Position numbers and translations under genes: made by a program
Shown here: positions 3,060-55,403 of the stretch, in pieces
Position numbering within the stretch: the stretch's first letter is position 1
Layout: each line of letters starts with the position of its first letter
The notes under the pieces: model-generated
What the model was told of the DNA's origin: nothing
Seen by the model: the letters and a program-made list of their open reading frames with translations, nothing else
Databases searched by the model: none
Assembly: GCA_965228895.1 (NCBI GenBank)
Contig: OZ245842.1
Span: forward strand, 2,839,964 to 2,903,963
Length of the DNA stretch: 64,000 nt
Direction of reading: 5' to 3'
Source: Alphaproteobacteria bacterium
GTDB taxonomy: Bacteria > Pseudomonadota > Alphaproteobacteria > SP197

Positions 3060-5707
<2,648 letters not shown>

Positions 5708-44182: not shown

Positions 44183-44800
44183 GTGACAGCGAGATGCGGT
44201 TGGTTTCTGGGGTTCGCGTTGTCATGCCTGGTCATCGCACCGGCCACCGCCGAATCGATCACGGTCAAAGGACTGACCTTCACCGATGAGCTCGGCGGGT
44301 TTCGCCTGTTGGCGGCATGGGGCAGCGGTTCGCTCGAAGACCCGATCACGGTGGTCGAAGAAATCACCAGCACCAGGGGCGCCGTCTTGATGATCCGAGG
44401 CGTTGGCCCGCATACCGGCAACGCCATTCCGACCAACCATCCCGCCGGCTTCGCACTGCGCAAGATCGTCACCAACGCGACCAACCAGACCTGGACGTTC
44501 TTTGATATCGAGTTGCAGAAGTTGCTGGGTACACCAAGCGACATCTACGACGGGCTGTCGTTCGGCCAGGATGCGCAGGCCGGGCGGCCGTTTACCTCCA
44601 ATCGATTCGGCCAAAGCGTGTCGCAGGACGAGCCGCGCGATCACGTCACGTTTTTTGATGGCGTGGTCGAACCGGGCGAAACCGTCAGCATGGACTTCGT
44701 CATCACCGCAACCGGTTACGTCACAGAACTGATGCTGCTGCAAAAACCGAACCGCCCGGTCGCATCGATCGACGGCGGCGCCACGGACCACGGCGGATGA
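44183..44800 (+). CDS. Secreted hypothetical protein, translationally coupled to the downstream cyclase
   Basis: The signal peptide is 'FLGFALSCLVIAPATAES'. The stop overlaps the next gene's ATG (ATGA at 44797-44800). Confidence 0.5.
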   Translation: MTARCGWFLGFALSCLVIAPATAESITVKGLTFTDELGGFRLLAAWGSGSLEDPITVVEEITSTRGAVLMIRGVGPHTGNAIPTNHPAGFALRKIVTNATNQTWTFFDIELQKLLGTPSDIYDGLSFGQDAQAGRPFTSNRFGQSVSQDEPRDHVTFFDGVVEPGETVSMDFVITATGYVTELMLLQKPNRPVASIDGGATDHGG

Positions 44801-46464
44801 TCGCGCGCATCAGACTGGGCTCCGGGCTGGTGCTTATGGTCTTTCTTGCCAGCCACCTGATCAACCACGCGCTGGGCATCCATTCTCTGGCCTGGATGGA
44901 GGCTGGCCGGCGTGTCTTCGATGGGGTTTGGCGCAGTACGCCGGGCACGGTCGTGCTGTGCGCGGCACTGGTCCTCCATCTGGGCCTGGTCTTCTGGGCG
45001 CTCTACCGGCGCAACAGCCTGGCCATGCCGCCACGCGAGTGGGCCCAGCTCTTGCTGGGGCTCACCATACCGCTGCTGGTCGCAGAACACGTGGCCGGCA
45101 CAAGGGGCGCCAACGAACTGTTCGGCGTCAACGACACTTATCCCTACGTTATCTATGCGCTATGGGTGGACGCGCCGTGGAAAGGCGTTCTGCAGTCGGT
45201 CCTGATCATCACCGCCTGGCTGCACGGCTGCTTGGGGATACACTTCTGGCTGCGCCTGAAACCCTGGTATCGGCGCTGGCAATGGTGCGCCTTCAGCTTG
45301 GCAATCCTGGTCCCCATCCTTGCCCTTGGCGGTTTTGTCGGCGCCGGCATTGACGTCGCGCGCTTGGCCAGTGACCCCGACTGGCTGCCCGAGTTTCTCG
45401 CCTCGACCGGCGTCGGGCGCGTCTTCGAACAGCTCTCAGCCTTCATGGCCCAAGCGCAACTCTGGACGATCGCCGTGGTCGTGGCCTTGGTCGCCACCGT
45501 TCTGCTTCTCAGATGGCTTCGCATGGCATTTGCCGCCCGGCGAAAAGCCCCTCGCCTGACCTACCCCAACGGTCAGGTGGTCGAGATCGCGCCGGGCTCG
45601 ACCGTGCTGGAGACCAGCCGCGCCGCCGACATTCCCCACGCCTCGGTTTGCGGCGGGCGCGGCCGTTGCTCGACCTGCCGCGTCCGGCTGGGCCACGGTC
45701 GAGATGATCTGGAACCGCCCGACGCCGATGAGCGCAAGGTCTTGGAGCGCATCGGCGATCCACCCCATGTCCGCTTGGCGTGTCAGCTTCGCCCGACCGC
45801 GGACCTTGCAGTCACCCCCTTGCTGCCCGCGCACGCCGGCCCCGCCGACGCGGTCATGCGCCAACGACCCGCCGGCGCCGGACGGGAACAGGAGATCGCC
45901 GTATTGTTTGCCGACCTCCGGGGCTTCACCACGCTGTCGGAAGCCAACCTTCCCTATGACACCGTCTTTGTCCTGAACCGCTATTTCGAAGCCATGGGCC
46001 ATGCCATCGAGGGCGCCGGCGGGCAGATCGACAAGTTTATCGGTGACGGCGTCATGGCGCTGTTTGGCGTCGACGGCACGATCGATAATGGATGCCGCCA
46101 GGCACTCGACGCGACGGAGGCCATGAGCCACGCGCTTGCCGCGCTCAACCGTTCGCTCGCCAAGGAGATTGAACAGCCGCTTCGACTCGGCATCGGCCTG
46201 CATGTCGGGCCGGCGGTGATCGGCGAAATGGGGTACGGCGAAACCATGCACATGACGGCAATCGGCGACGTCGTGAACACGGCGAGCCGGCTGGAGGGTG
46301 CGACGAAAGATCTGCGCTGCGATCTCGTTGTCTCAGAGCGTGTCGTGGAGCTGGCCGGCGTGCCCGAGATGCCCGGGTTGCCTCACGATCTGACGGTTCG
46401 CGGCAAGCGGGAAACCCTTCGGGTACGCGCCATCAGCAACCTCGCCGGCACACCAAAGTTATAA
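44797..46464 (+). CDS. Class III adenylate cyclase with N-terminal 6TM domain and 2Fe-2S ferredoxin domain
   Basis: About 220 aa of transmembrane helices are followed by the Fer2-like region 'IPHASVCGGRGRCSTCRVRL...VRLACQ'. The cyclase core follows: 'IAVLFADLRGFT...KFIGDGVMALFG...GLHVGPAVIGEMG'. Confidence 0.75.
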   Translation: MIARIRLGSGLVLMVFLASHLINHALGIHSLAWMEAGRRVFDGVWRSTPGTVVLCAALVLHLGLVFWALYRRNSLAMPPREWAQLLLGLTIPLLVAEHVAGTRGANELFGVNDTYPYVIYALWVDAPWKGVLQSVLIITAWLHGCLGIHFWLRLKPWYRRWQWCAFSLAILVPILALGGFVGAGIDVARLASDPDWLPEFLASTGVGRVFEQLSAFMAQAQLWTIAVVVALVATVLLLRWLRMAFAARRKAPRLTYPNGQVVEIAPGSTVLETSRAADIPHASVCGGRGRCSTCRVRLGHGRDDLEPPDADERKVLERIGDPPHVRLACQLRPTADLAVTPLLPAHAGPADAVMRQRPAGAGREQEIAVLFADLRGFTTLSEANLPYDTVFVLNRYFEAMGHAIEGAGGQIDKFIGDGVMALFGVDGTIDNGCRQALDATEAMSHALAALNRSLAKEIEQPLRLGIGLHVGPAVIGEMGYGETMHMTAIGDVVNTASRLEGATKDLRCDLVVSERVVELAGVPEMPGLPHDLTVRGKRETLRVRAISNLAGTPKL

Positions 46465-46533: not shown

Positions 46534-47733
46534 GTGGGTTTAAGATCGGTGCAGAAACGATCCGGTATTTTGGTGTCCGTGGTCTTGGCCAGTGCGCTTG
46601 TGCTGTCGCCGGCCTATGCCGACTTCGAAGCCGGCATGCAGGCCTATGACGCCGGTGACTACGCGGCCGCCATCTCGGAATGGCAGCCGCTGGCCGAACA
46701 AGGCAATCTGGAAGCCCAATTCGGCATGGGCATCATCTATGAGAACGGCCGCGGCATTGGCCGTGATTATACCGAAGCAGCCAAGTGGTATGCCGCCGCA
46801 GCCGAGGGCGGCCATCCCGGCGCCCAGTTCAATCTTGGAAACATCTACCAACAGGGCCTGGGTGTACCCAAGGACCCCTCGCGGGCGGTCTACTGGTGGA
46901 CGTTGTCGGCGGCTCAGGGCTTGTCGGATGCCCAACTGAACCTGGGAATCGCCTATCACCGCGGCGACGGCGTCGCGCGTGACCAGGACTTGGCGTTCTC
47001 GTGGTTCGAGCGGGCGGCCGAAGCGGGCAACCCTATGGGCCAGTTCTCCGCCGGTTACGCCTATGAAACCGGCCTGGGGACCGAGGTCAATTTGAATGAA
47101 GCACGCCGCCTCTACGCGGCGGCTGCCGAAGCCGGTATCCAGCAGGCTGCAAATCGGCTGGCCGTTCTGGGTCCGCCCGATGACGTGGCCGCCACCGAAC
47201 TCGTCCCCGAACCGGTCATGGAGACCGAGCCCGTCGAGTCGATTGAGTCGGCCGAGGTGATTCTGGAAGACGCGCCAAGCGAGGACATCACGGAGACCGA
47301 GCCCGTCGAGACAGACGAGGTCGCGGAAACCGTGCCGGAGCCGACCGTTGGCGACAGCGGTACGGAGCCGACAACCGATAGTTCGGCGATCGACTACAGC
47401 GCGGTCGAAGCGACCGAGACGGTCGAAACTGTCGAAACAGCCGCTGTCGAGACCGAGACGACCGTTGCCCCCGCGCAAGGCGGCGGCCCCTATATCCAGA
47501 TCGCCGCATACCTGAGCGAAGACCGTGCCGAGGCCGCGTGGCAGGACATTACCGGGCGGTTTCCCGATCTGCTGGGCGGCCTGCCCCACCGTGTCTTGAT
47601 GGTCGATCTTGGTGGTGAATTGGGCACGGTCTATCGCCTGCAGGCCGGACCGATGCCGGCCCAGGCTGAAGCGCAGGCTATCTGTAACGAGCTAAAGGCC
47701 AAGAACGCCGATTGTTTCCTGGTTGGACCTTAG
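46534..47733 (+). CDS. Sel1-repeat protein with C-terminal SPOR (peptidoglycan-binding) domain
   Basis: A signal peptide is followed by about five Sel1 repeats ('AQFNLGNIYQQGLGVPKD' and similar) and an acidic linker rich in E, T, P and V. The SPOR-like C-terminus reads 'YIQIAAYLSEDRAEAAWQDI...YRLQAGPM'. Confidence 0.65.
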   Translation: MGLRSVQKRSGILVSVVLASALVLSPAYADFEAGMQAYDAGDYAAAISEWQPLAEQGNLEAQFGMGIIYENGRGIGRDYTEAAKWYAAAAEGGHPGAQFNLGNIYQQGLGVPKDPSRAVYWWTLSAAQGLSDAQLNLGIAYHRGDGVARDQDLAFSWFERAAEAGNPMGQFSAGYAYETGLGTEVNLNEARRLYAAAAEAGIQQAANRLAVLGPPDDVAATELVPEPVMETEPVESIESAEVILEDAPSEDITETEPVETDEVAETVPEPTVGDSGTEPTTDSSAIDYSAVEATETVETVETAAVETETTVAPAQGGGPYIQIAAYLSEDRAEAAWQDITGRFPDLLGGLPHRVLMVDLGGELGTVYRLQAGPMPAQAEAQAICNELKAKNADCFLVGP

Positions 47734-47736
47734 ATC

Positions 47737-48129
47737 CTACTGAGCGTCCGGGCTGTTGGCTTTCAGATAGGCAATGACGTTGGCGATGTCGTCCTCCTTG
47801 GTCAGGCGGAACGTCATTTTGACGCCAGAGATGTATTTGGTCGGCCCGGCCAACCATTCGGTCAGTGTTGCTTCGTCCCAAACGATGCCGGATTCGGGCA
47901 GCTTGCCGGAATCGAGCGATCCCGCTTCGTTTGAACCCGCCGCGCTGCCGTAGACCCCAAACAAATTTGGACCTTGCTTCGGTGCGCCGCCTTGTTCGAT
48001 CGTGTGGCAGACCTTGCAGCGGTTGAACACCTTCTCACCTTGGGCAACATCGCCTTCGGCCCAAGCCGATTGCGCGGTGAGCCCAAGAGCGAGCGTGAGC
48101 AAAGATCCGAAAGCGGCAACACGTTTCAT
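47737..48129 (-). CDS. Class I c-type cytochrome (c2/c550-like)
   Basis: The signal peptide is followed by the heme motif 'CKVCHT'. Met appears as sixth ligand in 'GVKMTF', and 'NVIAYLK' is typical of cytochrome c2. Confidence 0.8.
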   Translation of the reverse strand: MKRVAAFGSLLTLALGLTAQSAWAEGDVAQGEKVFNRCKVCHTIEQGGAPKQGPNLFGVYGSAAGSNEAGSLDSGKLPESGIVWDEATLTEWLAGPTKYISGVKMTFRLTKEDDIANVIAYLKANSPDAQ

Positions 48130-48227
48130 CGAAACACTCCGTTAAGAAAGAACTGAAAAACCGTGCAGGTCAATACGATCGTCAGGCGGGATGTTACAAA
48201 TCAAATAACACTGTTCTTACGATCCTC

Positions 48228-48716
48228 TTACGATCCCGTGCACTCACCGCAGTTTTCGACCGGCAGATCCCTGGCCAACCATCCCGGACCGTCGCCGCTG
48301 CCGACCATGCCCTCGCCAATATCGTAGATCTGTTCAAACCCCTCGCCCTCCAGAAGGACATGCGCGATCGCGGAACGAACGCCGGCGGCGCAAATCAACG
48401 CGATCGGGCGTGACCTGTCGCCACCGGCAAGAGCCGTGACCTCTTCGACAAAATCCAGGTTCGGCAGACCATAGGCCAGAAACAGACTTGCCCTGCCAGC
48501 GCCCTCAGGAATACCGGTTTCGCGCCACTCCGATTCCGTCCGGATGTCGACAATCAGAAGCTCGCCCTGGCCAGACTGCTGCCATGCGTCCGGTGCCGAG
48601 AGCAGACCGTCGCCCTCCGCATAAGCCGGCGCAATAACAAAGAACACGAGCGCAAAAGCAAGGGATGGGCCGCGAACGGCCCATCCCCAGATCATCAAGC
48701 AGACGTTGGTTGTCAT
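48228..48716 (-). CDS. Periplasmic rhodanese-domain protein (sulfurtransferase)
   Basis: The start is trimmed to 'MTTNVCLMIWGW' with a signal peptide 'AFALVFFVIAPAYA'. The rhodanese active-site loop is 'ICAAGVRS'. Confidence 0.65.
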   Translation of the reverse strand: MTTNVCLMIWGWAVRGPSLAFALVFFVIAPAYAEGDGLLSAPDAWQQSGQGELLIVDIRTESEWRETGIPEGAGRASLFLAYGLPNLDFVEEVTALAGGDRSRPIALICAAGVRSAIAHVLLEGEGFEQIYDIGEGMVGSGDGPGWLARDLPVENCGECTGS

Positions 48717-48729
48717 CGGTTGATGATGA

Positions 48730-51282
48730 TCAGTTTCGATACTCCTCGGGGATGAAGAGCAGCGAATCCACCTCGGCGCCAATATGACAGTCGATGCAGA
48801 ACGCCACCTTTTCTGTACCCTCCCCGTTTGTGGTGCCGACAGTCTTGCCGTTGGGCATGATCAGGGTGTAGCGCCAGTCATCGGAGTCGGCGTTAAATCC
48901 CGAAGCCATCTTCTCCATGACAAACAACGGTCCGGGCACCACCGTGCCCTTTGCCGTCACCGCGAAGCTGTCCTTGGCCAGCACGGCACCAGCAGGCATG
49001 GTGCCGCCGTTTTCGTACTCGCCATATGACTGCGCCGCTGCGGCGTCAGCGTAATTGTTCACGAAGCGTCCGCCGTGGGTGTACGACTTGTAGGGCACGG
49101 AGTTGTACTTTTCCCATCCGCTGTAGGCGGACGAGATGTCAAGACCGGTGCTGGACATCAAATTGGCCTTGGCATAGCCGACTTCCATCTGCGCCTTGAT
49201 GCAGTCGTAAGCCGCCACAGCCTCGTCATTGGTCAGTTCGATGTCGACGCCGGCACCGCAGCCGCCGCACGCACCACAGCCGCCACACGCACCGCAACCG
49301 CCGCACGCACCACAGGCTCCACAAGCACCACAAGCACCACAGCCGCCACACGCACCGCAGCCACCGCAAGCGCCACAGGCTCCGCAAGCGCCGCAGGCCG
49401 AGCAGGCATCGCAGGCACTGCAGCCCGCCGCCATGCCGGCCGCAGGAACCGCCTCCGGATTCTCCTGCAAGCTCGCGCCGCAACCGCCGCACGCGCCACA
49501 GGCACCGCACGCGCCGCAGCCGCCACAGGCTCCGCAATCGGCCCAAGCGATGCTCGGCACCACGCAACCGGTGTCGGCTTCTGCCGCACAACCGCCGCAT
49601 GCACCACAACCACCGCACGCGCCACACGCTCCGCAAGCACCACACGCGCCGCAGCCACCACAGGCTCCGCATGCACCGCATGCACCGCATGCACCGCATG
49701 CACCGCATGCGTCACAAGCAGAACATGCGCCGCAAGCAGAACATGCGCCGCAGCCTGCCGCCATGCCGCTTGGCAACGCTTCCGGGTTCTCATGGCTGGC
49801 GCCATCTTCGTCGTCGGACCCGTCGGATTTCTCACCGCGCGGTTCCCACCAGTCCTCGCCGTCGCGTTTGGCACGCACTGCAAACTTCATGGCGCCATTC
49901 GAGTCTTCCAGGCTGGCGCCGCAACATCCACCACACGCACCGCAGGCATCACAGGCCGCGCAACACGCCGAGCACGCATCACACGCGCCGCAAGCCGAGC
50001 ACGCATCGCAGGCACCGCAGCCCGCCGCCATGCCAGTCGGCAGGGCGTCCGGATTGTCGAGGCTGGCGCCGCAGCATCCACCACACGCACCGCAGGCATC
50101 ACAAGCCGCACAACATGCCGAACACGCATCACACGCGCCGCAAGCCGAGCACGCATCGCACGCACCGCAGCCCGCCGCCATGCCGGTCGGCAGGGCGTCC
50201 GGATTGTCGAGGCTGGCGCCGCAGCATCCACCGCACGCACCGCAGGCATCACAGGCCGCACAACATGCCGAACACGCATCGCACGCGCCGCAAGCCGAGC
50301 ACGCATCGCACGCACCGCAGCCCGCCGCCATGCCGGTCGGCAGGGCGTCCGGATTGTCGAGGCTTGCGCCGCAACATCCACCGCACGCTCCGCAGGCATC
50401 ACAAGCCGCGCAACACGCCGAGCACGCATCACACGCGCCGCAAGCCGAGCACGCATCGCAGGCACCGCAGCCCGCCGCCATGCCAGTCGGCAGGGCGTCC
50501 GGATTGTCGAGGCTGGCGCCGCAACATCCACCGCAAGCTCCGCAGGCATCACAGGCCGCGCAACACGCCGAGCACGCATCACACGCGCCGCAAGCCGAGC
50601 ACGCATCGCACGCACCGCAGCCAGCCGCCATGCCGGTCGGCAGGGCGTCCGGATTGTCGAGGCTGGCGCCGCAACATCCACCGCAAGCTCCGCAGGCATC
50701 ACAAGCCGCGCAACATGCCGAACACGCATCACACGCGCCGCAAGCCGAGCACGCATCGCACGCACCGCAGCCCGCCGCCATGCCAGTCGGCAGGGCGTCC
50801 GGATTGTCGAGGCTTGCGCCGCAACATCCACCACACGCACCGCAGGCATCACAAGCCGCGCAACATGCCGAACACGCATCACACGCGCCGCAAGCCGAGC
50901 ACGCATCGCACGCACCGCAGCCCGCCGCCATGCCAGTCGGCAGGGCGTCCGGATTGTCGAGGCTTGCGCCGCAACATCCACCACACGCACCGCAGGCATC
51001 ACAGGCCGCGCAACACGCCGAACACGCATCGCACGCGCCGCAAGCCGAGCACGCATCGCACGCACCGCAGCCCGCCGCCATGCCGGTCAAAGCACGATCG
51101 GCGATGGACAAGGAGGCGGGCATGGGAACGGCGGCCGGATTTTCGACCGCGCGTGGATTGACAAGGCGACAGCTGGCGCGACCACAAGGCGCTGCCGCAA
51201 CGCTGACGGCAAGCGCAACGCCGGCGCCCATAAAGGCCGGCAGCATCGTGCTCGACAGCAGATTACGTTTGAGTTCACTCAT
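48730..51282 (-). CDS. Secreted giant Cys-periodic repeat protein fused to a cytochrome P460-like heme domain
   Basis: A GGGAGG ribosome-binding site sits 11 nt upstream. The signal peptide is 'MSELKRNLLSSTMLPAFMGAGVALAVSVAAAP'. Eight 43-aa units 'MAAGCGACDACSACGACDACSACCAACDACGACGGCCGASLDNPDALPTG' follow, then further (CxA/CxG)n blocks. The ~165-aa C-terminus 'DDWRYTLIMPNGK...VAFCIDCHIGAEVDSLLF' has a CXXCH motif and the P460/c'-beta family pattern. The heme domain has no signal peptide of its own, so it must be exported using the N-terminal one. Confidence 0.6.
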   Translation of the reverse strand: MSELKRNLLSSTMLPAFMGAGVALAVSVAAAPCGRASCRLVNPRAVENPAAVPMPASLSIADRALTGMAAGCGACDACSACGACDACSACCAACDACGACGGCCGASLDNPDALPTGMAAGCGACDACSACGACDACSACCAACDACGACGGCCGASLDNPDALPTGMAAGCGACDACSACGACDACSACCAACDACGACGGCCGASLDNPDALPTGMAAGCGACDACSACGACDACSACCAACDACGACGGCCGASLDNPDALPTGMAAGCGACDACSACGACDACSACCAACDACGACGGCCGASLDNPDALPTGMAAGCGACDACSACGACDACSACCAACDACGACGGCCGASLDNPDALPTGMAAGCGACDACSACGACDACSACCAACDACGACGGCCGASLDNPDALPTGMAAGCGACDACSACGACDACSACCAACDACGACGGCCGASLEDSNGAMKFAVRAKRDGEDWWEPRGEKSDGSDDEDGASHENPEALPSGMAAGCGACSACGACSACDACGACGACGACGACGACGGCGACGACGACGACGGCGACGGCAAEADTGCVVPSIAWADCGACGGCGACGACGACGGCGASLQENPEAVPAAGMAAGCSACDACSACGACGACGACGGCGACGGCGACGACGACGACGGCGACGGCGACGGCGAGVDIELTNDEAVAAYDCIKAQMEVGYAKANLMSSTGLDISSAYSGWEKYNSVPYKSYTHGGRFVNNYADAAAAQSYGEYENGGTMPAGAVLAKDSFAVTAKGTVVPGPLFVMEKMASGFNADSDDWRYTLIMPNGKTVGTTNGEGTEKVAFCIDCHIGAEVDSLLFIPEEYRN
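49990..51081. repeat. Eight near-identical tandem 129-bp in-frame DNA repeats
   Basis: The period is 129 bp and the units are nearly identical, differing by about 1-5 nt each. A less regular 9-bp (CxA)n periodicity continues to about 49230. Confidence 0.85.
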
Positions 51283-51457
51283 AACCGAAGAAACCTCCCA
51301 AATATCCCAGTTGCCCTGCCCTCACGACAACGTGTCGACCGCTGCCTTTGAAAGTCGGCGAAACTATCGCCCCATAGCTCGAGGGTGCAGGGCGATGATA
51401 TCGACTGACTTCGACATGGAACCAGTGATTTCCCTTTCACGTTAGCGTGAGAATGTA

Positions 51458-52336
51458 GTGGTGAAAAAGCCAGGGCTAGTGCGGCTTTCCGGCCTAACAC
51501 TTGTAATCTTTGCAGGCATAGTGATGACGCCGGCATGGGCCCAGGACCCACCCCTGCCCGGCATGGACGTCATCGAGATTCCGGCCGGATCGTTTCTTGC
51601 CGGATCAACATCGGAAGAACGCGAGCGCGCCTATCAGCTCGACGAAGCTGCTTACGGCCACAGCCGCACCCGCGAACGCGGCTGGTACGAAGACGATGAC
51701 GACCTGCACGAGGTCTATCTCGACACCTATTGGATCACCAAGAATCTGATCACCAACGCCCAGTATCAGGTCTTTGTCGAGGCTACGGGCCATCGAGTCC
51801 CGGACATCGACAAGGAGACCTGGGACGGCTTCGGCCTGATCCACCCTTACGAAAGAACGCGTCAATTCGCCTGGACAGATGGTGTGCCGCCGACCGGCCG
51901 CGAGGATCATCCGGTGGTCATGGTCAACCATGCCGATGCAACAGCGTTCGCCGTATGGCTATCTGAGGAAACCGGTCAGACCTGGCGGTTGCCGAGCGAA
52001 ATGGAGTGGCAAAAGGCGGCGCGCGGCACGGACGGGCGGATGTTCCCGTGGGGCGACGAATGGGATCCCAACCTGGCGAACACGCACGATGCCGGCCCGT
52101 TTCGAACCGTGCCGGTGGGCTCTTTTCCCGAAGCCGCAAGTCCTTATGGCATGTTGGATGCCGCGGGCCAGGTGTTTGAATGGACGACGACCTTGAAACG
52201 CCCCGGCCGTTACTGGGTCAAGGGCGGGTCCTGGGATGACCGCGGGTGCGGCGTGTGCCGGCCAGCCGACCGGCACAGCCGCCCCGAGGACATTCAGCAC
52301 ATACTTGTCGGATTCAGGCTCGTGCTGGAACCCTGA
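51458..52336 (+). CDS. Secreted FGE-sulfatase (SUMF1/EgtB/PvdO) family protein
   Basis: The signal peptide is 'LTLVIFAGIVMTPAWAQ'. Family motifs are 'HPVVMVNHADATAFAVWLS', 'RLPSEMEWQKAARG' and 'GNVFEWT'-like 'GQVFEWTT'. Confidence 0.75.
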   Translation: MVKKPGLVRLSGLTLVIFAGIVMTPAWAQDPPLPGMDVIEIPAGSFLAGSTSEERERAYQLDEAAYGHSRTRERGWYEDDDDLHEVYLDTYWITKNLITNAQYQVFVEATGHRVPDIDKETWDGFGLIHPYERTRQFAWTDGVPPTGREDHPVVMVNHADATAFAVWLSEETGQTWRLPSEMEWQKAARGTDGRMFPWGDEWDPNLANTHDAGPFRTVPVGSFPEAASPYGMLDAAGQVFEWTTTLKRPGRYWVKGGSWDDRGCGVCRPADRHSRPEDIQHILVGFRLVLEP

Positions 52337-52800: not shown

Positions 52801-53592
52801 TTGAAAGGTGGTGGCGCTGACGCCATCCTCACGCCCATGGCAATGACAGAAACCGCGACACCGGGCCTGGACGTCGATCTACCGCGACGGGTCCAGCTCG
52901 ATGATTTGGACCGCAGCGACCTCGAAGAGATGCTCGAGGCCGGGCGTGATGTGCTCGAATGCTACCGGGTGCTGCGCAAAAACAACGACAACGTGGTCGG
53001 CGAACTGCTGCGCGACGTCGAAACCTTCTACCAGTGGCAGCACTATCCAAAGGGTGACATCTTCGACCGGGAGACCGGCAGCCAGTTCTATTATCACGCC
53101 CACCCTAAGGCCAGCCGGCCGGGTGAGCATGGCCATTTCCACACCTTCATGCGCGCCAAAGGGATGCCCAAGGGCACCGAACCCGTCCCTTACGACGGCG
53201 ACAAGGTGTGGCCCTTGGGTCCCGATGCGCTGAGCCATCTGATCGCGATATCGATGGATCCAAAGGGGTATCCCATCGGCTTGTTCACGGTGAACCGGTG
53301 GGTCACCGGGGACACGTGGTATGCCGCCGAGGATGTGGTGAAGATGGTCGACCTGTTCGACATCGATCACGCCCGCCCCTCCTGGCCGGTCAACCGCTGG
53401 GTCACGGCGATGATGCGCCTGTTCCGTCCGCTGGTGCATGACCTCGTAAGGGAACGCGATCTGGTCATGGCGGCATGGCGCGACAGTCATCCGGGAACCG
53501 ATGTCTATGCCGACCACGGTCTTGAGATCACGTCGGCCAGCACGATTTCCGTCGAGAAGCAGATCACGCGCATCCGCAGTCTTCTCGCCTAG
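52801..53592 (+). CDS. Conserved hypothetical protein
   Basis: 263 aa containing 'YYHAHPKASRPGEHGHFHTF'. I do not recognise a characterised family. The start may be the internal 'MAMTETA'. Confidence 0.45.
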   Translation: MKGGGADAILTPMAMTETATPGLDVDLPRRVQLDDLDRSDLEEMLEAGRDVLECYRVLRKNNDNVVGELLRDVETFYQWQHYPKGDIFDRETGSQFYYHAHPKASRPGEHGHFHTFMRAKGMPKGTEPVPYDGDKVWPLGPDALSHLIAISMDPKGYPIGLFTVNRWVTGDTWYAAEDVVKMVDLFDIDHARPSWPVNRWVTAMMRLFRPLVHDLVRERDLVMAAWRDSHPGTDVYADHGLEITSASTISVEKQITRIRSLLA

Positions 53593-53643
53593 AACAGATC
53601 CCGTATTGCCGATCTGCCCGCTCCTGCGGTGCCTCAAACAAGT

Positions 53644-53680
53644 GGCGCCGTCTCCGGGAGGGGGGATCGGAGACGGCGCC
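53644..53680 (+). terminator. Perfect 13-bp stem hairpin downstream of the 52801 gene
   Basis: GGCGCCGTCTCCG-ggaggggggat-CGGAGACGGCGCC. The trailing T-tract is weak (TATTACAAAG), so this may be a Rho-dependent or structural element. Confidence 0.4.
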
Positions 53681-54053
53681 TATTACAAAGACCGAAATGA
53701 ACTGGCGAAAACCCTATTGGGGGACGGGGTGGGTTTCACCAAACCGGAGAGAATCCAGGGGAGTACATTCCCCCCGGCCTACGACGCTGCGAGTCGTCTT
53801 CCGGCCTTCCTTGCCCCAGATATGTCGATCCGAAGCCCCTTGTACAAGACCATGAATGACGCCTCGCACCGATGTGATGGAACATTGAGCGAGTTTTTGC
53901 ACAGATCACAAATTTGCCCGCTAAATCATCAGCTTCGGGCGTCTGTTCGCGTTGTTAACTGCCACGTTTTTGCCGGATTTAATGGGGCTAGAAAACCGCC
54001 GGGACTACAACCGCTTGCACAGCGCGCCATTGCGCCGGGGGAATCGGAAACGA

Positions 54054-54572
54054 TCATTCGGCAAAGCCTATCCATGGCGAATCGGGCTTACGGCTGAATG
54101 CCGCCGAGCCATCCGCGACCTGCGCCTGAACGGTCTTCCAGTTATCGGCGCCGCGCGTGATGCGCGAACGCATGTCGGAGGTCCATTGGCCTTTAACCTG
54201 TTCATCCCAATTCAGATAGAGCTTGTCGTCGACAACGCTCCACGCCGTCGCGGGATCGACTTCGGCGGCATACGCGCCAACCGACAGCGCATAGGCACAC
54301 CAACCGCCGAACTGCGGCGCGTAGGCTTCGGGATCGCCGGCAAAGAGGTCACGGTTTTCGGCGCTGGCGAAATGCCACGTCGCGCCGTTCCAAGCATGGC
54401 TCAGTGTGGGATCGCCTTGCACGGCTTCACCTTGGGTGAAGTAAGCGACCGTGTCATAGCCACCAATCGCGACGCCATCGGGCGTCACATTCACTGAGCT
54501 GTCGGCATGCGCCCAATGGGTGAAGAGCGCCGACGCCAGCATCACACACAGCACGAAAGCGATTCGTCGCAT
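54054..54572 (-). CDS. Secreted YHS-domain protein
   Basis: The start is trimmed to 'MRRIAFVLCVMLASALFTHWAHA'. 'AIGGYDTVAYF' and 'GGWCAYAL' are YHS-like. Confidence 0.55.
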   Translation of the reverse strand: MRRIAFVLCVMLASALFTHWAHADSSVNVTPDGVAIGGYDTVAYFTQGEAVQGDPTLSHAWNGATWHFASAENRDLFAGDPEAYAPQFGGWCAYALSVGAYAAEVDPATAWSVVDDKLYLNWDEQVKGQWTSDMRSRITRGADNWKTVQAQVADGSAAFSRKPDSPWIGFAE

Positions 54573-54668
54573 AGCCCGATCCTCTCCGGTCGTTTCGCGC
54601 AACATCATCGGCCAAAGTGACCTCGACGCGCCAATCGCCGTTGGCCACCATGTCGATAGCCTGGTGCT

Positions 54669-54681
54669 ATGGTCCGACCAT
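54669..54681. promoter_or_regulatory. 13-bp perfect palindrome in the divergent YHS/ZIP promoter
   Basis: ATGGTC-C-GACCAT lies about 40 bp upstream of the ZIP transporter start. It is a candidate operator for a metalloregulator. Confidence 0.35.
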
Positions 54682-54719
54682 CGCATCACCGGCGCCAACC
54701 CGCTGCAGGAATCCTGCCG

Positions 54720-55403
54720 ATGACGAATACTCTCTTAGGGGTTCTCGCCTTCACGCTGATCCCCTGTATCGGCATTCTTGCCGGCAGCGCAGCCGCCCTG
54801 GCACGTGCGCCAGGGCCGAGACTGATCAGCGCGTTTCAGCACTTTGCCGCCGGTGTGGTGTTTGCCGCGGTGGCGGTGGAACTACTGCCGCAACTCCACA
54901 CTCTGGATTCACCAGTCGCCATGATCGTCGGCTTTGTGCTGGGGATCGGGGCGATGCTGATGTTCAAGGCCCTGTTCGAAGATGCCGGTATCGTTGTTCC
55001 CATGACCGTGGACCTTTTCGTCGACGGCTTACTGATCGCCGTCGGTTTTGCTGCCGGCGTGATGGGCGGGACGGTTCTGTTGATTGGCCTGACGCTGGAA
55101 ACGCTGTCGCTGGGACTGTCGACGGCCCCCGCGCTGGTAAAGCGCGGCATGACACGGTCGCGGGCTGTTGTGATGTTGGTCGCGATCAGCCTGGCCATCC
55201 TTGTCGGCGCGGCGGCCGGTCATCTCATTGCCGGCATGTCGGGCGCCTTTCTGGCCGGTATTCTTGGTTTCGGTGTCGCGGCGCTGCTCTATCTGGTGAC
55301 CGAAGAATTGTTGAGCGAAGCGCACGAGGTGCCGGATACGCCGATCGTCACCGCGACCTTCTTCGCCGGTTTCCTGGTGCCTATCGTGATAGCGGCCGCC
55401 TGA
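54720..55403 (+). CDS. zupT: ZIP-family metal (zinc) transporter
   Basis: The start is trimmed to 'MTNTLLGVLAF'. Eight helices are predicted, with a metal-binding TM4-5 region 'HLIAGMSG' and the ZIP signature 'LVTEELLSEAHE'. Confidence 0.7.
   Translation: MTNTLLGVLAFTLIPCIGILAGSAAALARAPGPRLISAFQHFAAGVVFAAVAVELLPQLHTLDSPVAMIVGFVLGIGAMLMFKALFEDAGIVVPMTVDLFVDGLLIAVGFAAGVMGGTVLLIGLTLETLSLGLSTAPALVKRGMTRSRAVVMLVAISLAILVGAAAGHLIAGMSGAFLAGILGFGVAALLYLVTEELLSEAHEVPDTPIVTATFFAGFLVPIVIAAA

What the first reader, a model, noticed from the sequence alone, without database searches (positions are those of the whole stretch)
47737..52336. Candidate new periplasmic system: ~170-Cys periodic (C-x-x)n array fused to a cytochrome P460-like heme domain, with rhodanese, cytochrome c2 and an FGE-family enzyme
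The 850-aa minus-strand ORF has a classical signal peptide and a ribosome-binding site. It then runs about 600 residues in which essentially every third residue is cysteine (CGACDACSACGACDACSACCAACDACGACGGCC, repeated). It ends in a ~165-aa domain whose C-terminus, 'DDWRYTLIMPNGK...FCIDCHIGAEVDSLLF', matches the cytochrome P460 / c'-beta pattern, including the CXXCH heme-c site. Heme-c attachment requires export, and the only signal peptide is the N-terminal one. The whole Cys array must therefore be translated and secreted along with the heme domain. I know of no described protein that combines a metallothionein-like or polysulfide-carrier-like CxxC polymer with a P460 fold. The neighbours point to a functional module: a periplasmic rhodanese and a cytochrome c2 lie co-directionally downstream, and a secreted FGE/SUMF1-family enzyme is encoded divergently. 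The rhodanese is a sulfane-sulfur transferase that acts on Cys thiols, and the cytochrome is a plausible electron acceptor. Plausible functions are periplasmic metal or sulfane-sulfur storage and buffering wired to a redox-active heme, or a self-protecting electron sink. Which one applies is inference.
Basis: partly seen in the sequence, partly recalled or inferred. Interest (0 to 1): 0.92.

Follow-up and report, generated by a model that had tools for sequence, protein, structure and literature searches.

The report
Exported poly-cysteine array fused to P460 heme
The 850-residue gene is real: it encodes an exported protein with 155 cysteines in a C-x-x pattern tied to a cytochrome P460-type heme domain. 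It is an oversized member of a large, undescribed and routinely mis-annotated family of marine bacterial proteins that come with their own partner enzymes and probably carry or buffer sulfur, redox equivalents or metals outside the cytoplasm.

Summary
ORF 48730-51282(-) encodes a signal peptide, ten Cys-array modules (155 Cys) and a C-terminal heme-c domain.

- **Frame:** Every DNA difference among the eight 150-bp repeats is synonymous in the Cys frame. So are all 54 substitutions against a second strain.
- **C-terminal domain:** It passes the Pfam P460 threshold. Its model matches only cytochrome c'-beta/P460 structures. It keeps CXXCH and an invariant Lys at the P460 cross-link position (tentative alignment).
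- **Not unique:** At least 552 loci in species-representative genomes, mostly marine Alphaproteobacteria, share the architecture. The median array is 155 aa and the window's, at 595 aa, is the largest. Gene callers truncate it to 152 aa.
- **The array is a mobile module:** It also occurs alone and fused to SoxA/TsdA-type cytochrome c, DM13 and LysM.
- **Partners:** Cytochrome c recurs less often. Rhodanese is confined to a clade and alternates with a YeeE/YedE sulfur transporter.

Best reading: a heme-wired poly-thiol sulfur/redox carrier. A metal-thiolate sponge and a RiPP-like modified polymer remain open. No description was found in the searched literature. Function is inferred, not shown.

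The parts
48730..51282 (-). Full gene: signal peptide, ten Cys-array modules and a P460-type heme-c domain (850 aa, 155 Cys)
   Evidence: ORF listing and Cys statistics. Substitutions against a second strain are 54 synonymous to 0 non-synonymous. Homologs share both ends of the protein.
51190..51282 (-). Signal peptide, aa 1-31 (MSELKRNLLSSTMLPAFMGAGVALAVSVAAA)
   Evidence: The sequence has a basic n-region and a hydrophobic h-region. It is homologous to the family N-terminus 'K..LLSTT.IP..vG.Gv'. The cleavage site was not determined. Some relatives carry a canonical lipobox instead.
51085..51189 (-). Pre-array leader, aa 32-66, carrying the first NPAAVP motif
   Evidence: The related motif 'NPxAVx[KR]P...LAAC' precedes the arrays mainly in FGE/DUF6969-linked relatives (judged by eye) and in stand-alone array peptides.
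49885..51084 (-). Eight tandem 50-aa modules (GMAAGCGACDACSACGACDACSACCAACDACGACGGCCGASLDNPDALPT), 13 Cys each
   Evidence: Tandem Repeats Finder reports period 150, 7.9 copies, 96% matches. The protein units are identical, and the DNA differs only at synonymous sites.
49789..49884 (-). Cys-free acidic spacer, aa 467-498
   Evidence: Read directly from the sequence.
49462..49788 (-). Module 9, aa 499-607 ((C-G/S/D-A/G)n), containing the family's central linker motif
   Evidence: A 27-nt in-frame length difference from the second strain falls in this module.
49549..49566 (-). CVVPSI, aa 573-578. This is the window's version of the family's single conserved 'C[VIA][VI]PR[LI]' linker motif.
   Evidence: The motif occurs exactly once in 52 of 57 complete family members. 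Sequences are shown.
49243..49461 (-). Module 10, aa 608-680
48733..49242 (-). Cytochrome P460/c'-beta-fold heme-c domain, aa 681-850
   Evidence: Pfam PF16694 scores 29.3 bits against a cutoff of 27. The AlphaFold2 model has pLDDT 91. All eight Foldseek PDB hits with E<=1e-3 are c'-beta or P460 structures, best 9hqt at E=3e-6. A family profile hits 7s5o at E=0.0025.
48973..48975 (-). Lys770, invariant in the family and aligned to the heme cross-link position of cytochromes P460
   Evidence: K95 is an invariant column of alignment A1. It aligns with Met79 of N. europaea c'-beta, which Table 2 of PMC11928373 gives as the equivalent of the cross-linking Lys. The alignment is low-scoring, so this is tentative.
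48784..48798 (-). CIDCH heme-c attachment motif, aa 829-833
   Evidence: C, C and H are invariant in 48 relatives.
48228..48716 (-). Periplasmic single-domain rhodanese, probable ATG start at 48716, active-site loop CAAGVRS
   Evidence: Pfam Rhodanese scores 33.1 bits. It is called as 162 aa in public assemblies. It is syntenic only in the window's clade, 19 of 171 loci.
47737..48129 (-). Secreted class I cytochrome c (c2/c550-like)
   Evidence: Pfam Cytochrom_C scores 40 bits. NCBIfam CycA scores 71 bits, below its cutoff. It is found in 35 of 171 loci.
51458..52336 (+). Secreted FGE-fold enzyme, divergently transcribed, with the invariant CxxC motif CGVC at 52247-52258
   Evidence: Pfam FGE-sulfatase scores 143.6 bits. 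'KGGSWDDxGCG[VIF]CR' is conserved in all 31 aligned orthologs. It lies next to arrays or P460 genes in 19 of 26 well-flanked metagenome loci.
52801..53592 (+). DUF6969: a cytoplasmic protein with a cluster of conserved His residues and an unknown fold. It is the most consistent partner gene.

Best explanation
**What it is (about 0.9 confidence).** This is a genuine exported protein. It is the largest known member of a widespread, uncurated family in which a length-variable array of C-x-[P/A/G]-C triplets is tethered to a mono-heme cytochrome P460-type domain. The family forms a gene system with a secreted FGE-fold enzyme that carries an invariant CxxC and with the cytoplasmic protein DUF6969, which has a cluster of conserved His residues.

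**How it most likely works (about 0.4 confidence, inferred).**
- The array is the working part. It is a high-capacity periplasmic poly-thiol that cycles between dithiol, disulfide and persulfide or other S-adduct states. In effect it is a carrier and buffer for sulfane sulfur and thiol redox equivalents.
- The ligand-binding P460-type heme is the site where array thiols or their sulfur adducts are oxidised or reduced. Solved relatives of this heme type have low reduction potentials.
- Electrons pass to or from the co-encoded soluble cytochrome c.
- The periplasmic rhodanese loads or unloads sulfur. In other lineages a YeeE/YedE sulfur transporter takes its place.
- The FGE-like CxxC enzyme and DUF6969 are dedicated maturation or turnover factors that act on the array cysteines.
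- Capacity scales with array length. That would explain the copy-number variation and the recent eight-fold tandem expansion in this genome.
For: **Shown**
- The frame is under purifying selection.
- The signal peptide and the heme domain are conserved around arrays of 24-595 aa.
- The domain has the P460/c'-beta fold, CXXCH and an invariant Lys.
- Position x2 of C-x1-x2-C is restricted to P, A or G in 1,648 motifs.
- The arrays are a mobile module. They are fused to catalytic-type hemes, namely P460-like and SoxA/TsdA-like domains, and SoxA/TsdA enzymes make S-S bonds. They are also fused to the electron-transfer domain DM13.
- FGE-like and DUF6969 genes are tightly linked to the arrays in both search directions and across clusters of different architecture.
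- One FGE-like ortholog carries its own CXXCH domain.

**Pointing specifically to sulfur**
- Two unrelated sulfur-trafficking families recur in the clusters and never occur together. Rhodanese is in 19 loci and YeeE/YedE 'Sulphur transport' is in 17, so 36 of 171 loci have one or the other.
- A TusA gene lies near one cluster.
- No metal-homeostasis family appears among the recurrent neighbours that were annotated.

**From established knowledge**
- P460 and c'-beta hemes have potentials of -200 to -424 mV (PMC11928373). These are compatible with dithiol/disulfide couples.
- All known FGE-fold enzymes act on cysteine thiols or sulfur.
Against: - No Sox, Dsr or Sqr genes lie in the window, and none was recognised among the recurrent neighbours.
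- Rhodanese and YeeE are each present in only a minority of loci, and the window lacks YeeE.
- The array composition (Cys, Lys, Ala, Gly, Ser, Asn and Pro, with no aromatics) is metallothionein-like.
- Canonical FGE is a copper enzyme. Bufferin-cytochrome c-FGE fusions have been read in the literature as copper-related.
- The His cluster of DUF6969 suggests metal binding.
- A YHS-family gene and a weak (below-cutoff) ZIP-like gene lie next to the module in the window.
- Nothing here measures heme, sulfur or metal content.
- The alignment behind the Lys cross-link assignment is weak (E=0.0025).
Confidence: 0.42

Rival explanations
1. Periplasmic metallothionein-like sponge. The arrays bind soft metal ions, most plausibly Cu(I), otherwise Zn, Cd or Hg, as thiolate clusters. 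The heme domain and cytochrome c supply electrons to reduce the metal or to keep the thiols reduced. The FGE-like CxxC protein and DUF6969 handle metal.
For: - The arrays are about 25% Cys, contain no aromatic residues, and in most relatives are rich in Lys, Ala, Gly, Ser and Asn.
- Array length and copy number vary, and this genome has a recent tandem amplification.
- Stand-alone secreted array peptides exist.
- The invariant CxxC of the FGE-like enzyme sits in the loop where FGE binds Cu(I).
- DUF6969 has six invariant His residues.
- A YHS-family gene and a weak, below-cutoff ZIP-like gene lie next to the module.
- There is a literature precedent for exported Cys-repeat copper-binding peptides and for Buf1|Cytochrom_C|FGE-sulfatase fusions.
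Against: - No cop, cus, czc or mer genes and no metal-sensing regulators appear among the recurrent neighbours of 171 loci that were annotated.
- The YHS and ZIP-like neighbours are not conserved. YHS was found only in the window's own locus.
- Known periplasmic copper proteins use Met and His rather than Cys (established knowledge).
- The hypothesis does not explain fusion to catalytic-type hemes, or the alternation of rhodanese and YeeE.
- No metallothionein Pfam family hits the protein.
Confidence: 0.25
2. RiPP-like modified polymer. The arrays, both the fused ones and the short stand-alone peptides, are precursors whose cysteines are chemically converted. DUF6969 would act before export and the FGE-like oxidase after export, for example turning Cys into formylglycine or thioaldehyde-derived groups or into cross-links. 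The product would be a new periplasmic metallophore or material. This reading can coexist with either functional reading above.
For: - Short peptides of 85-115 aa, made of a signal peptide, the motif 'NPxAxxxP..LAAC' and a repetitive core, sit beside FGE-like and DUF6969 genes.
- The leader-like motif is repeated once per module in the window, ten times in all.
- C-x-[P/A] matches the first three positions of the sulfatase C-x-[P/A]-x-R motif (plus established knowledge).
- DUF6969 is cytoplasmic yet linked to exported substrates. This parallels MNIO enzymes and the Sec-exported bufferins (PMC11626156, PMC12452194).
- FGE-like and DUF6969 genes are translationally coupled in L098.
Against: - No chemistry has been shown.
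- The arrays lack the Arg of the FGE motif.
- The FGE-like Cys pair is spaced CxxC, not CxxxxC.
- Seven of 26 well-flanked FGE-like loci, all seven with DUF6969, have no array nearby.
- About half of the array-P460 loci lack both enzymes within 6 kb.
- No protease or dedicated exporter typical of RiPP clusters recurs.
Confidence: 0.18
3. Nitrogen-oxide chemistry. The P460-type heme binds NO or NH2OH, as characterised P460 and c'-beta proteins do. The neighbouring thiols act as nucleophiles and reductants through S-nitrosation followed by disulfide formation, giving a high-capacity NO sink.
For: The domain has the P460/c'-beta fold and an invariant Lys at the cross-link position. P460 {FeNO}6 intermediates are attacked by nucleophiles (PMC11928373).
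Against: - The position of the catalytic distal carboxylate aligns with Gly. This resembles the variants that are inactive toward NH2OH.
- No nitrification or denitrification genes lie in the window or among the recurrent neighbours.
- The arrays also occur without P460 domains.
Confidence: 0.08
4. Annotation or assembly artefact. Only the 152-aa P460 protein called by public pipelines is made, and the Cys frame upstream is a chance open frame over a DNA repeat.
For: Public gene calls give a 152-aa product plus a 725-aa antisense ORF. The antisense frame is also open. A related genome has a frameshift inside its array.
Against: - The synonymous to non-synonymous counts are 54:0 in the Cys frame and 46:8 in the antisense frame.
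- All differences between repeats are synonymous.
- The 152-aa call lacks any signal peptide, although heme-c attachment requires export.
- The signal peptide, array and domain architecture is conserved in dozens of intact ORFs.
- Two independent assemblies agree on eight repeats.
Confidence: 0.02

Closest known systems
Cytochrome P460 / cytochrome c'-beta superfamily (Pfam PF16694; for example N. europaea P460, M. capsulatus McCP-beta)
   Same: The C-terminal 170 aa share the beta-rich fold, the single C-terminal CXXCH, the periplasmic location and the Pfam membership. A Lys lies at the cross-link position.
   Different: Characterised members are small stand-alone proteins of nitrifiers and methanotrophs. 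None is described with an N-terminal Cys array (review PMC11928373). The distal carboxylate needed for NH2OH oxidation appears to be absent. Sequence identity to solved members is only 17-25%.
Bufferins and oxazolins (MNIO-modified, Sec-exported Cys-containing RiPP metallophores; PMC11626156, PMC12452194)
   Same: Both are signal-peptide-bearing, Cys-rich and often repetitive periplasmic peptides or proteins. Oxazolins have up to 58 Cys. Both include stand-alone and fused forms, are occasionally fused to cytochrome c and FGE-sulfatase domains, and have a cytoplasmic metallo-enzyme partner.
   Different: This system has no MNIO (DUF692) or DUF2063 genes nearby. The repeat is C-x-[P/A/G]-C rather than EGKCG or Buf1/Buf2. 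The partner enzymes are FGE-like and DUF6969. The fusion is to a P460-type heme, and no modification has been shown.
Metallothioneins
   Same: Both are 25-30% Cys in C-x-x-C or C-C patterns, have small or Lys-rich spacers and no aromatic residues, and expand by tandem amplification.
   Different: Metallothioneins are small cytosolic proteins. This protein is exported, up to 850 aa long, heme-linked and strictly periodic. No metallothionein family model matches it.
SoxYZ/SoxAX carrier-based periplasmic sulfur oxidation (also TsdA)
   Same: In both, a periplasmic carrier cysteine would be acted on by a low-potential catalytic c-type heme, with a small cytochrome c as redox partner. The arrays are fused to SoxA/TsdA-type domains in other lineages. 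Gly-flanked Cys (GGCG) resembles the GGCGG arm of SoxY.
   Different: There is no SoxY/Z fold and there are no sox genes. The protein has hundreds of internal cysteines rather than one C-terminal carrier Cys. The heme domain here is P460-type.
Formylglycine-generating enzyme (FGE/SUMF1) and FGE-fold relatives (PvdO, EgtB, ToxD, CalU17)
   Same: The neighbour gene has the FGE-sulfatase fold and a conserved Cys pair in the loop after GGS[WY].
   Different: It is secreted. Its Cys pair is spaced CxxC rather than CxxxxC. There is no sulfatase substrate nearby. It scores far below every NCBIfam equivalog cutoff. Its closest solved relatives, ToxD and CalU17, lack the Cys pair.

Membership tests
Cytochrome P460 / c'-beta superfamily (PF16694) | Match to the family model at or above the curated threshold | tested here: met
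   The score is 29.3 bits against a gathering cutoff of 27, over aa 735-839. This is marginal. A family profile also hits PDB 7s5o at E=0.0025.
Cytochrome P460 / c'-beta superfamily (PF16694) | Beta-sheet-rich fold shared with solved P460 and c'-beta structures | tested here: met
   The AlphaFold2 model has pLDDT 91.3. All eight Foldseek PDB hits with E<=1e-3 are c'-beta or P460 structures: 9hqt at 3e-6, 7s5o at 1.4e-5 and 8gar at 3.6e-4. TM-scores normalised to the target are 0.49-0.66.
Cytochrome P460 / c'-beta superfamily (PF16694) | Single CXXCH heme-c motif near the C-terminus, plus export to the periplasm | tested here: met
   CIDCH lies at aa 829-833. C, C and H are invariant in 48 relatives. 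An N-terminal signal peptide is present and conserved. Heme attachment itself cannot be tested here.
Cytochrome P460 proper (as opposed to c'-beta) | Lys that cross-links to the heme meso carbon | tested here: inconclusive
   The invariant Lys of 'LAKDSF' (aa 770) aligns with Met79 of NeCP-beta, which is the equivalent of the cross-link Lys. The alignment is low-scoring. Foldseek ranks the c'-beta structures slightly above P460. Spectroscopy is needed.
Cytochrome P460 proper (NH2OH-oxidising) | Distal proton-accepting carboxylate (Glu96 or Asp102) | tested here: inconclusive
   The equivalent position (NeCP-beta Ala109) aligns with the Gly of '(A/S)GF(N/K)', which is conserved in at least 90% of 48 relatives. 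This suggests the carboxylate is absent, but it rests on the same weak alignment.
Formylglycine-generating enzyme (neighbour 51458-52336) | FGE-sulfatase fold domain | tested here: met
   PF03781 scores 143.6 bits. PDB relatives include FGE 2q17 at E=1.9e-14, while ToxD and CalU17 are closer.
Formylglycine-generating enzyme (neighbour 51458-52336) | Two Cu(I)-binding catalytic Cys spaced C-x4-C after GGS[YF] | tested here: not met
   An invariant Cys pair is present, but it is spaced CxxC (GGSWDDxGCG[VIF]C) in 31 of 31 orthologs. Whether it is equivalent to the FGE pair is unknown.
Formylglycine-generating enzyme (neighbour 51458-52336) | Sulfatase substrate carrying C-x-P-x-R | tested here: not met
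   No sulfatase gene lies in the window module and none was recognised among the recurrent neighbours. The arrays offer C-x-[P/A/G]-C without Arg. The linker motif is C-x-x-P-R.
Metallothionein | Small cytosolic Cys-rich protein that matches a metallothionein family model | tested here: not met
   The protein is exported and 850 aa long. No metallothionein Pfam or NCBIfam hit was found. Only the composition resembles metallothionein. Metal binding cannot be tested here.
Bufferin / oxazolin RiPPs | Adjacent MNIO (DUF692) enzyme with a DUF2063-type partner, and a Buf1, Buf2 or EGKCG core | tested here: not met
   Pfam assignments for the neighbouring genes from 42.1 to 64 kb show no DUF692 or DUF2063. 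None was recognised among the recurrent neighbour clusters of 171 loci that were annotated. The core motif is different.
SoxY-type sulfur carrier | SoxY fold with a C-terminal GGCGG arm and a SoxZ partner | tested here: not met
   No Sox family hit was found for the protein or its neighbours. The cysteines are internal and repetitive.

The most novel reading that the evidence does not exclude
The Cys arrays, both fused and stand-alone, are substrates of a previously unrecognised post-translational modification pathway. DUF6969 is a new-fold enzyme with a cluster of conserved His residues. It would act on Sec-targeted precursors before export. A secreted, heme-fed FGE-like CxxC oxidase would act after export. 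Together they would convert periodic cysteines into a new periplasmic redox, sulfur- or metal-binding polymer wired to a P460 heme. That would be a new class of ribosomally made, enzymatically tailored material, present in hundreds of marine bacterial species.
Probability: 0.2. Interest if true: 0.93.

Novelty: new variant of a known kind. Interest (0 to 1): 0.8.

Why it matters
- **Annotation gap.** Standard gene callers systematically destroy this family. They truncate the gene to 152 aa and call an antisense ORF over the array. The window's own array type has essentially no counterpart in the protein databases searched.
- **New context for the P460/c'-beta fold.** So far the fold is tied to nitrifier and methanotroph N-oxide chemistry. 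Here it occurs in marine heterotrophic Alphaproteobacteria, joined to an array of 20 to about 150 thiols.
- **A testable gene system.** The system comprises the Cys array, a catalytic-type heme, an FGE-like CxxC enzyme and DUF6969, with either rhodanese or YeeE. It gives the 5,434 DUF6969 clusters found here a first functional context, and it points to a non-sulfatase role for secreted FGE-fold enzymes.
- **Possible biology.** If the arrays store sulfane sulfur, redox equivalents or metals outside the cytoplasm, this is a new mode of periplasmic buffering. It would be relevant to marine sulfur and metal cycling. The arrays would also be naturally length-tunable poly-thiol scaffolds.
- **Experiments are feasible.** Cultured strains carry the system, namely Aestuariispira insulae CECT 8488 and Pelagibius sp. 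Alg239-R121.

Tried and rejected
1. **Direct phmmer of the C-terminal domain against PDB sequences.** No meaningful hit. A profile and a fold search were needed instead.
3. **The 155-aa secreted accessory protein.** It gives only a non-significant cupredoxin hint (E=0.29), and it is absent from the window.
4. **Exhaustive phmmer with the window's array against 1.84 billion representative proteins.** It returned only weak low-complexity matches of 83 bits or less. This shows the array is missing from the databases, not that it has relatives.
5. **Literature searches.** Searches for the repeat motifs, DUF6969, 'periplasmic metallothionein', tandem CXXC, P460 with cysteine-rich, and FGE with RiPP found nothing relevant.
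6. **Rfam scan for a riboswitch or leader around the module.** None was found, only a sub-threshold CcsR1-like hit outside the genes. No sigma-70 consensus promoter was found either.
7. **Sulfatase maturation as the role of the FGE-like gene.** Rejected, because no sulfatase is present and the Cys-pair spacing is wrong.
8. **Fe-S cluster or heme binding by the arrays.** Considered and set aside, because the protein is Sec-exported unfolded and the arrays contain no His.
9. **My first regular expression for the 'NPxAV' leader motif.** It was too permissive because it also matched NPCAA. The correlation of that motif with FGE/DUF6969 linkage therefore rests on reading the sequences by eye.

Full report

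Yes. ORF 48730..51282(-) begins with ATG and encodes 850 aa. A GGGAGG lies upstream of the start. The protein has 155 Cys, and 123 of the 154 Cys-to-Cys gaps are exactly three residues.

The layout is:
- a signal peptide (aa 1-31);
- a short leader;
- ten modules, each opening with NPxA[LV]P...GMAAGC and followed by a (C-x-x)n array;
- an acidic Cys-free spacer (aa 467-498);
- a single CVVPSI linker motif (aa 573-578);
- a 170-aa C-terminal domain with CIDCH at aa 829-833.

Eight modules are identical 50-aa units. They are encoded by a 150-bp tandem repeat with 7.9 copies and 96% matches.

**2. Is the Cys frame translated?**

Three independent lines say so.
- Among the eight repeat units, every variable codon is synonymous in the Cys frame, apart from the divergent tail of the last unit.
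- A second assembly of a strain that is 99.0% identical over 11.2 kb (L001) keeps all eight units. It differs inside the ORF by 54 substitutions, all at third codon positions and all synonymous (54:0). The antisense frame that shares wobble positions scores 46:8, and the other frames score 0:54 or 9:45. The only length difference is an in-frame 27-nt indel.
- Homologs conserve both the N-terminal signal peptide ('K..LLSTT.IP..vG.Gv') and the C-terminal domain, while the Cys array between them varies in length and sequence.

Public pipelines nevertheless call only a 152-aa C-terminal fragment, which has no signal peptide, plus a 725-aa antisense ORF. This explains why an exhaustive protein search with the window's array finds nothing better than 83 bits.

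**3. The C-terminal domain**

- Pfam Cytochrome_P460 scores 29.3 bits against a cutoff of 27. Direct phmmer against PDB sequences finds nothing.
- A 48-sequence profile hits N. europaea cytochrome c'-beta 7s5o at E=0.0025.
- An AlphaFold2 model with pLDDT 91 matches eight PDB chains at E<=1e-3, and all are c'-beta or P460 structures. The best is 9hqt at E=3e-6, and P460 8gar scores 3.6e-4.
- CXXCH is invariant in the 48 relatives.
- Table 2 of the 2025 superfamily review (PMC11928373) gives the residue equivalents. Read against the profile alignment, the family-invariant Lys of 'LAKDSF' (aa 770) falls at the heme cross-link position. The catalytic carboxylate position falls on a conserved Gly. 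This suggests a P460-type heme without NH2OH oxidase capacity, but it rests on a weak alignment.
- The review's text has no mention of cysteine-rich extensions or fusions, and its section on occurrence and phylogeny describes none.

**4. It is a family, not a singleton**

- The domain has 318 homolog clusters.
- A scan of one genome per GTDB species found at least 552 loci. Nearly all of the 80 listed are labelled as marine Alphaproteobacteria (Kiloniellales, Rhodospirillales, Sneathiellales, Pelagibius), and they include the cultured Aestuariispira insulae CECT 8488.
- In 57 complete ORFs the architecture is a signal peptide (sometimes with a lipobox), array A, one conserved 'C[VIA][VI]PR[LI]' motif (52 of 57), array B and the P460 domain.
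- The median array length is 155 aa with an interquartile range of 130-185. The window's array, at 595 aa, is the maximum.
- In 1,529 family C-x1-x2-C motifs, x2 is P (88%), A (10%) or G (2%). The window uses only the minority form, with A at 85% and G at 15%.
- Close relatives (L011, L012, L014) are intermediate in both composition and size. One of them carries a frameshift.

**5. The array is a mobile module**

A search with a (CNPCNPCAAK)n query found 920 clusters. They include:
- stand-alone secreted peptides of 85-150 aa;
- N- or C-terminal fusions to SoxA/TsdA-type cytochrome c;
- fusions to DM13 and LysM, and one protein that its source names as YHS.

No Pfam or NCBIfam model covers the array itself. 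Extra stand-alone array peptides lie in many of the P460 loci, but none lies in the window.

**6. The gene system**

- Around the 84 non-redundant P460 loci, DUF6969 (35 loci), the FGE-like gene (32) and cytochrome c (29) recur. Rhodanese occurs in only about 12.
- The FGE-like protein is secreted. It has an invariant 'KGGSWDDxGCG[VIF]CR' in 31 of 31 orthologs, in the loop where FGE carries its catalytic Cys pair, but the spacing is CxxC.
- Stand-alone arrays in other lineages also sit beside these genes:
  - L090: the FGE-like gene is divergent from a P460 gene, which is followed by an array peptide.
  - L092: an array peptide is followed by DUF6969.
  - L093: an array-SoxA/TsdA cytochrome c-array protein is followed by DUF6969, a 155-aa secreted protein and an array peptide.
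  - L098: the order is array peptide, array-cytochrome c-array protein, an FGE-like gene with its own CXXCH domain, DUF6969, then the 160-aa secreted protein.
- The FGE side was checked in metagenomes. Of 26 well-flanked loci, DUF6969 is present in 18, a Cys array in 17, P460 in 13, the 155-aa protein in 11, cytochrome c in 6 and rhodanese in 3.
- Pooling 171 loci gives FGE-like 109, array-P460 101, DUF6969 76, cytochrome c 35, rhodanese 19, YeeE/YedE 'Sulphur transport' 17 and DUF302 12. Rhodanese and YeeE never occur together, and 36 loci have one or the other. No metal-homeostasis family appears among the recurrent neighbours that were annotated.
- DUF6969 has no signal peptide, carries six invariant His residues, belongs to 5,434 homolog clusters and has no detectable structural relative.
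- Outside the module, the window encodes unrelated metabolic genes.

**7. Mechanism**

Shown:
- The protein is exported and heme-motif-bearing, with up to about 150 periodically spaced cysteines under strong selection.
- The array length is evolutionarily plastic.
- The array is physically or genetically coupled to catalytic-type c hemes, a small cytochrome c, an FGE-fold CxxC protein, DUF6969, and alternately rhodanese or YeeE.

Inferred (best guess, about 0.4):
- The arrays are a high-capacity periplasmic poly-thiol that carries sulfane sulfur or cycles between thiol and disulfide.
- The P460-type heme and cytochrome c move the electrons. Solved relatives of this heme type have low reduction potentials.
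- Rhodanese or YeeE traffics the sulfur.
- The FGE-like enzyme and DUF6969 mature or recycle the array.

The main rival, at about 0.25, is a metallothionein-like metal sponge. It is supported by the composition, by the copper enzymology of FGE, by the His-rich DUF6969, and by the published Buf1|Cytochrom_C|FGE-sulfatase fusions. A RiPP-like conversion of the cysteines, at about 0.2, can overlap with either reading. An N-oxide role and an artefact explanation are both unlikely.

**8. Comparison and novelty**

The C-terminal domain is a new, divergent member of the P460/c'-beta superfamily. The neighbour enzyme has the FGE fold but fails two defining FGE features.

The nearest described kinds of system are the MNIO-dependent bufferins and oxazolins, metallothioneins, and SoxY/SoxAX carrier chemistry. 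The present system shares its logic with each but fails the membership tests for all of them.

I found no publication that describes the array, DUF6969 or the combination. I therefore rate it a new variant of a known kind, namely an exported Cys-repeat protein with dedicated enzymes. There is roughly a one-in-five chance that it is categorically new chemistry.

**9. Verdict**

The protein is real and unusual, and the FGE link is genuine. It is, however, an extreme member of a large hidden family. The rhodanese link is limited to one clade, the key partner DUF6969 was missed, and the function remains inference. Interest: 0.8.

Noticed in passing
window 49075-51445 (+); L001 3771-5948: Public assemblies annotate a spurious 725-aa antisense ORF (the 'HAPQ...' frame) across the Cys array and truncate the real gene to 152 aa. 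The same mis-calling recurs in relatives: antisense ORFs were called in L007, L008, L090 and L100.
   Followed up: yes
window 49.2-51.1 kb compared with L001: Two strains that are 99% identical differ about eight-fold more densely inside the array (54 differences in about 1.9 kb) than in the flanks (31 in about 8.7 kb). All the array differences are synonymous. There are no differences in the P460 domain, and one 27-nt in-frame indel. This looks like reshuffling of synonymous variants between repeats, or relaxed codon constraint.
   Followed up: partly
window 53640-53725 (-): An Rfam CcsR1-like hit (the stress-induced CCUCCUCCC-motif sRNA of Rhodobacter) scores 34.6 bits with E=1.5e-5. This is well below the gathering score of 65.3. 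It lies just downstream of DUF6969.
   Followed up: no
window 48661-48688 (-): A strong 12-bp GC-rich hairpin followed by a T-rich run lies 42-70 nt after the stop codon of the array gene, inside the signal-peptide coding region of the rhodanese gene. It could be an attenuator or partial terminator between the two genes.
   Followed up: no
window 54054-54698 (-) and 54669-55403 (+): A YHS-domain '(seleno)protein' family gene (NCBIfam NF041384, 144 bits) converges on a gene with a weak, below-cutoff Pfam ZIP match and overlaps it by about 30 nt, next to the module. tblastn with the window's YHS protein found it only in the window's own locus among the 89 loci then held.
   Followed up: partly
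L019, L036, L052, L070, L074, L084, L090, L093, L098 and metagenome loci (for example L093 4491-4958): A conserved secreted protein of about 155 aa with three conserved Cys (motif ...YVYSCPLNPTPDY...) is a further accessory of the system, present in 24 of 171 loci. It has no family assignment and is absent from the window.
   Followed up: partly
L052, L070, L073, L074, L084, L088, L116, L129, L131, L140, L144, L147, L152: The system has a second flavour: DUF302, a YeeE/YedE sulfur transporter, the 155-aa protein, the FGE-like gene divergent from the array-P460 gene, then DUF6969. Here YeeE/YedE replaces the window's rhodanese. The two never occur in the same locus.
   Followed up: partly
L098 3146-4438 and 5856-8342: In one metagenomic cluster the FGE-like CxxC enzyme carries its own N-terminal CXXCH (CGSCH) domain and is translationally coupled to DUF6969. 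A second FGE-domain protein of 828 aa follows.
   Followed up: no
L002/L011 3504-6459: The closest large relative (75% identical in the domain) would encode about 985 aa with about 200 Cys. Its array is split by a +1 frameshift near position 4200. This could be an assembly error, a pseudogene or phase variation.
   Followed up: no
L095/L096 2419-5264; L097 378-2353: Some stand-alone arrays sit in other contexts. One follows a DedA/VTT protein and a class I pyridine-nucleotide-disulfide oxidoreductase (the family that includes MerA and RclA). In a Mariprofundaceae contig, an array-SoxA/TsdA cytochrome precedes an MtrC/MtrF-like multiheme cytochrome.
   Followed up: no
window 44797-46464 (+) and 46534-47733 (+): Next to the module lie a membrane protein that combines a 2Fe-2S ferredoxin domain with an adenylate/guanylate cyclase domain, and a secreted Sel1-repeat plus SPOR protein. 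Sel1-like genes also follow the P460 gene in the Kiloniellaceae/Pelagibius group of loci.
   Followed up: no
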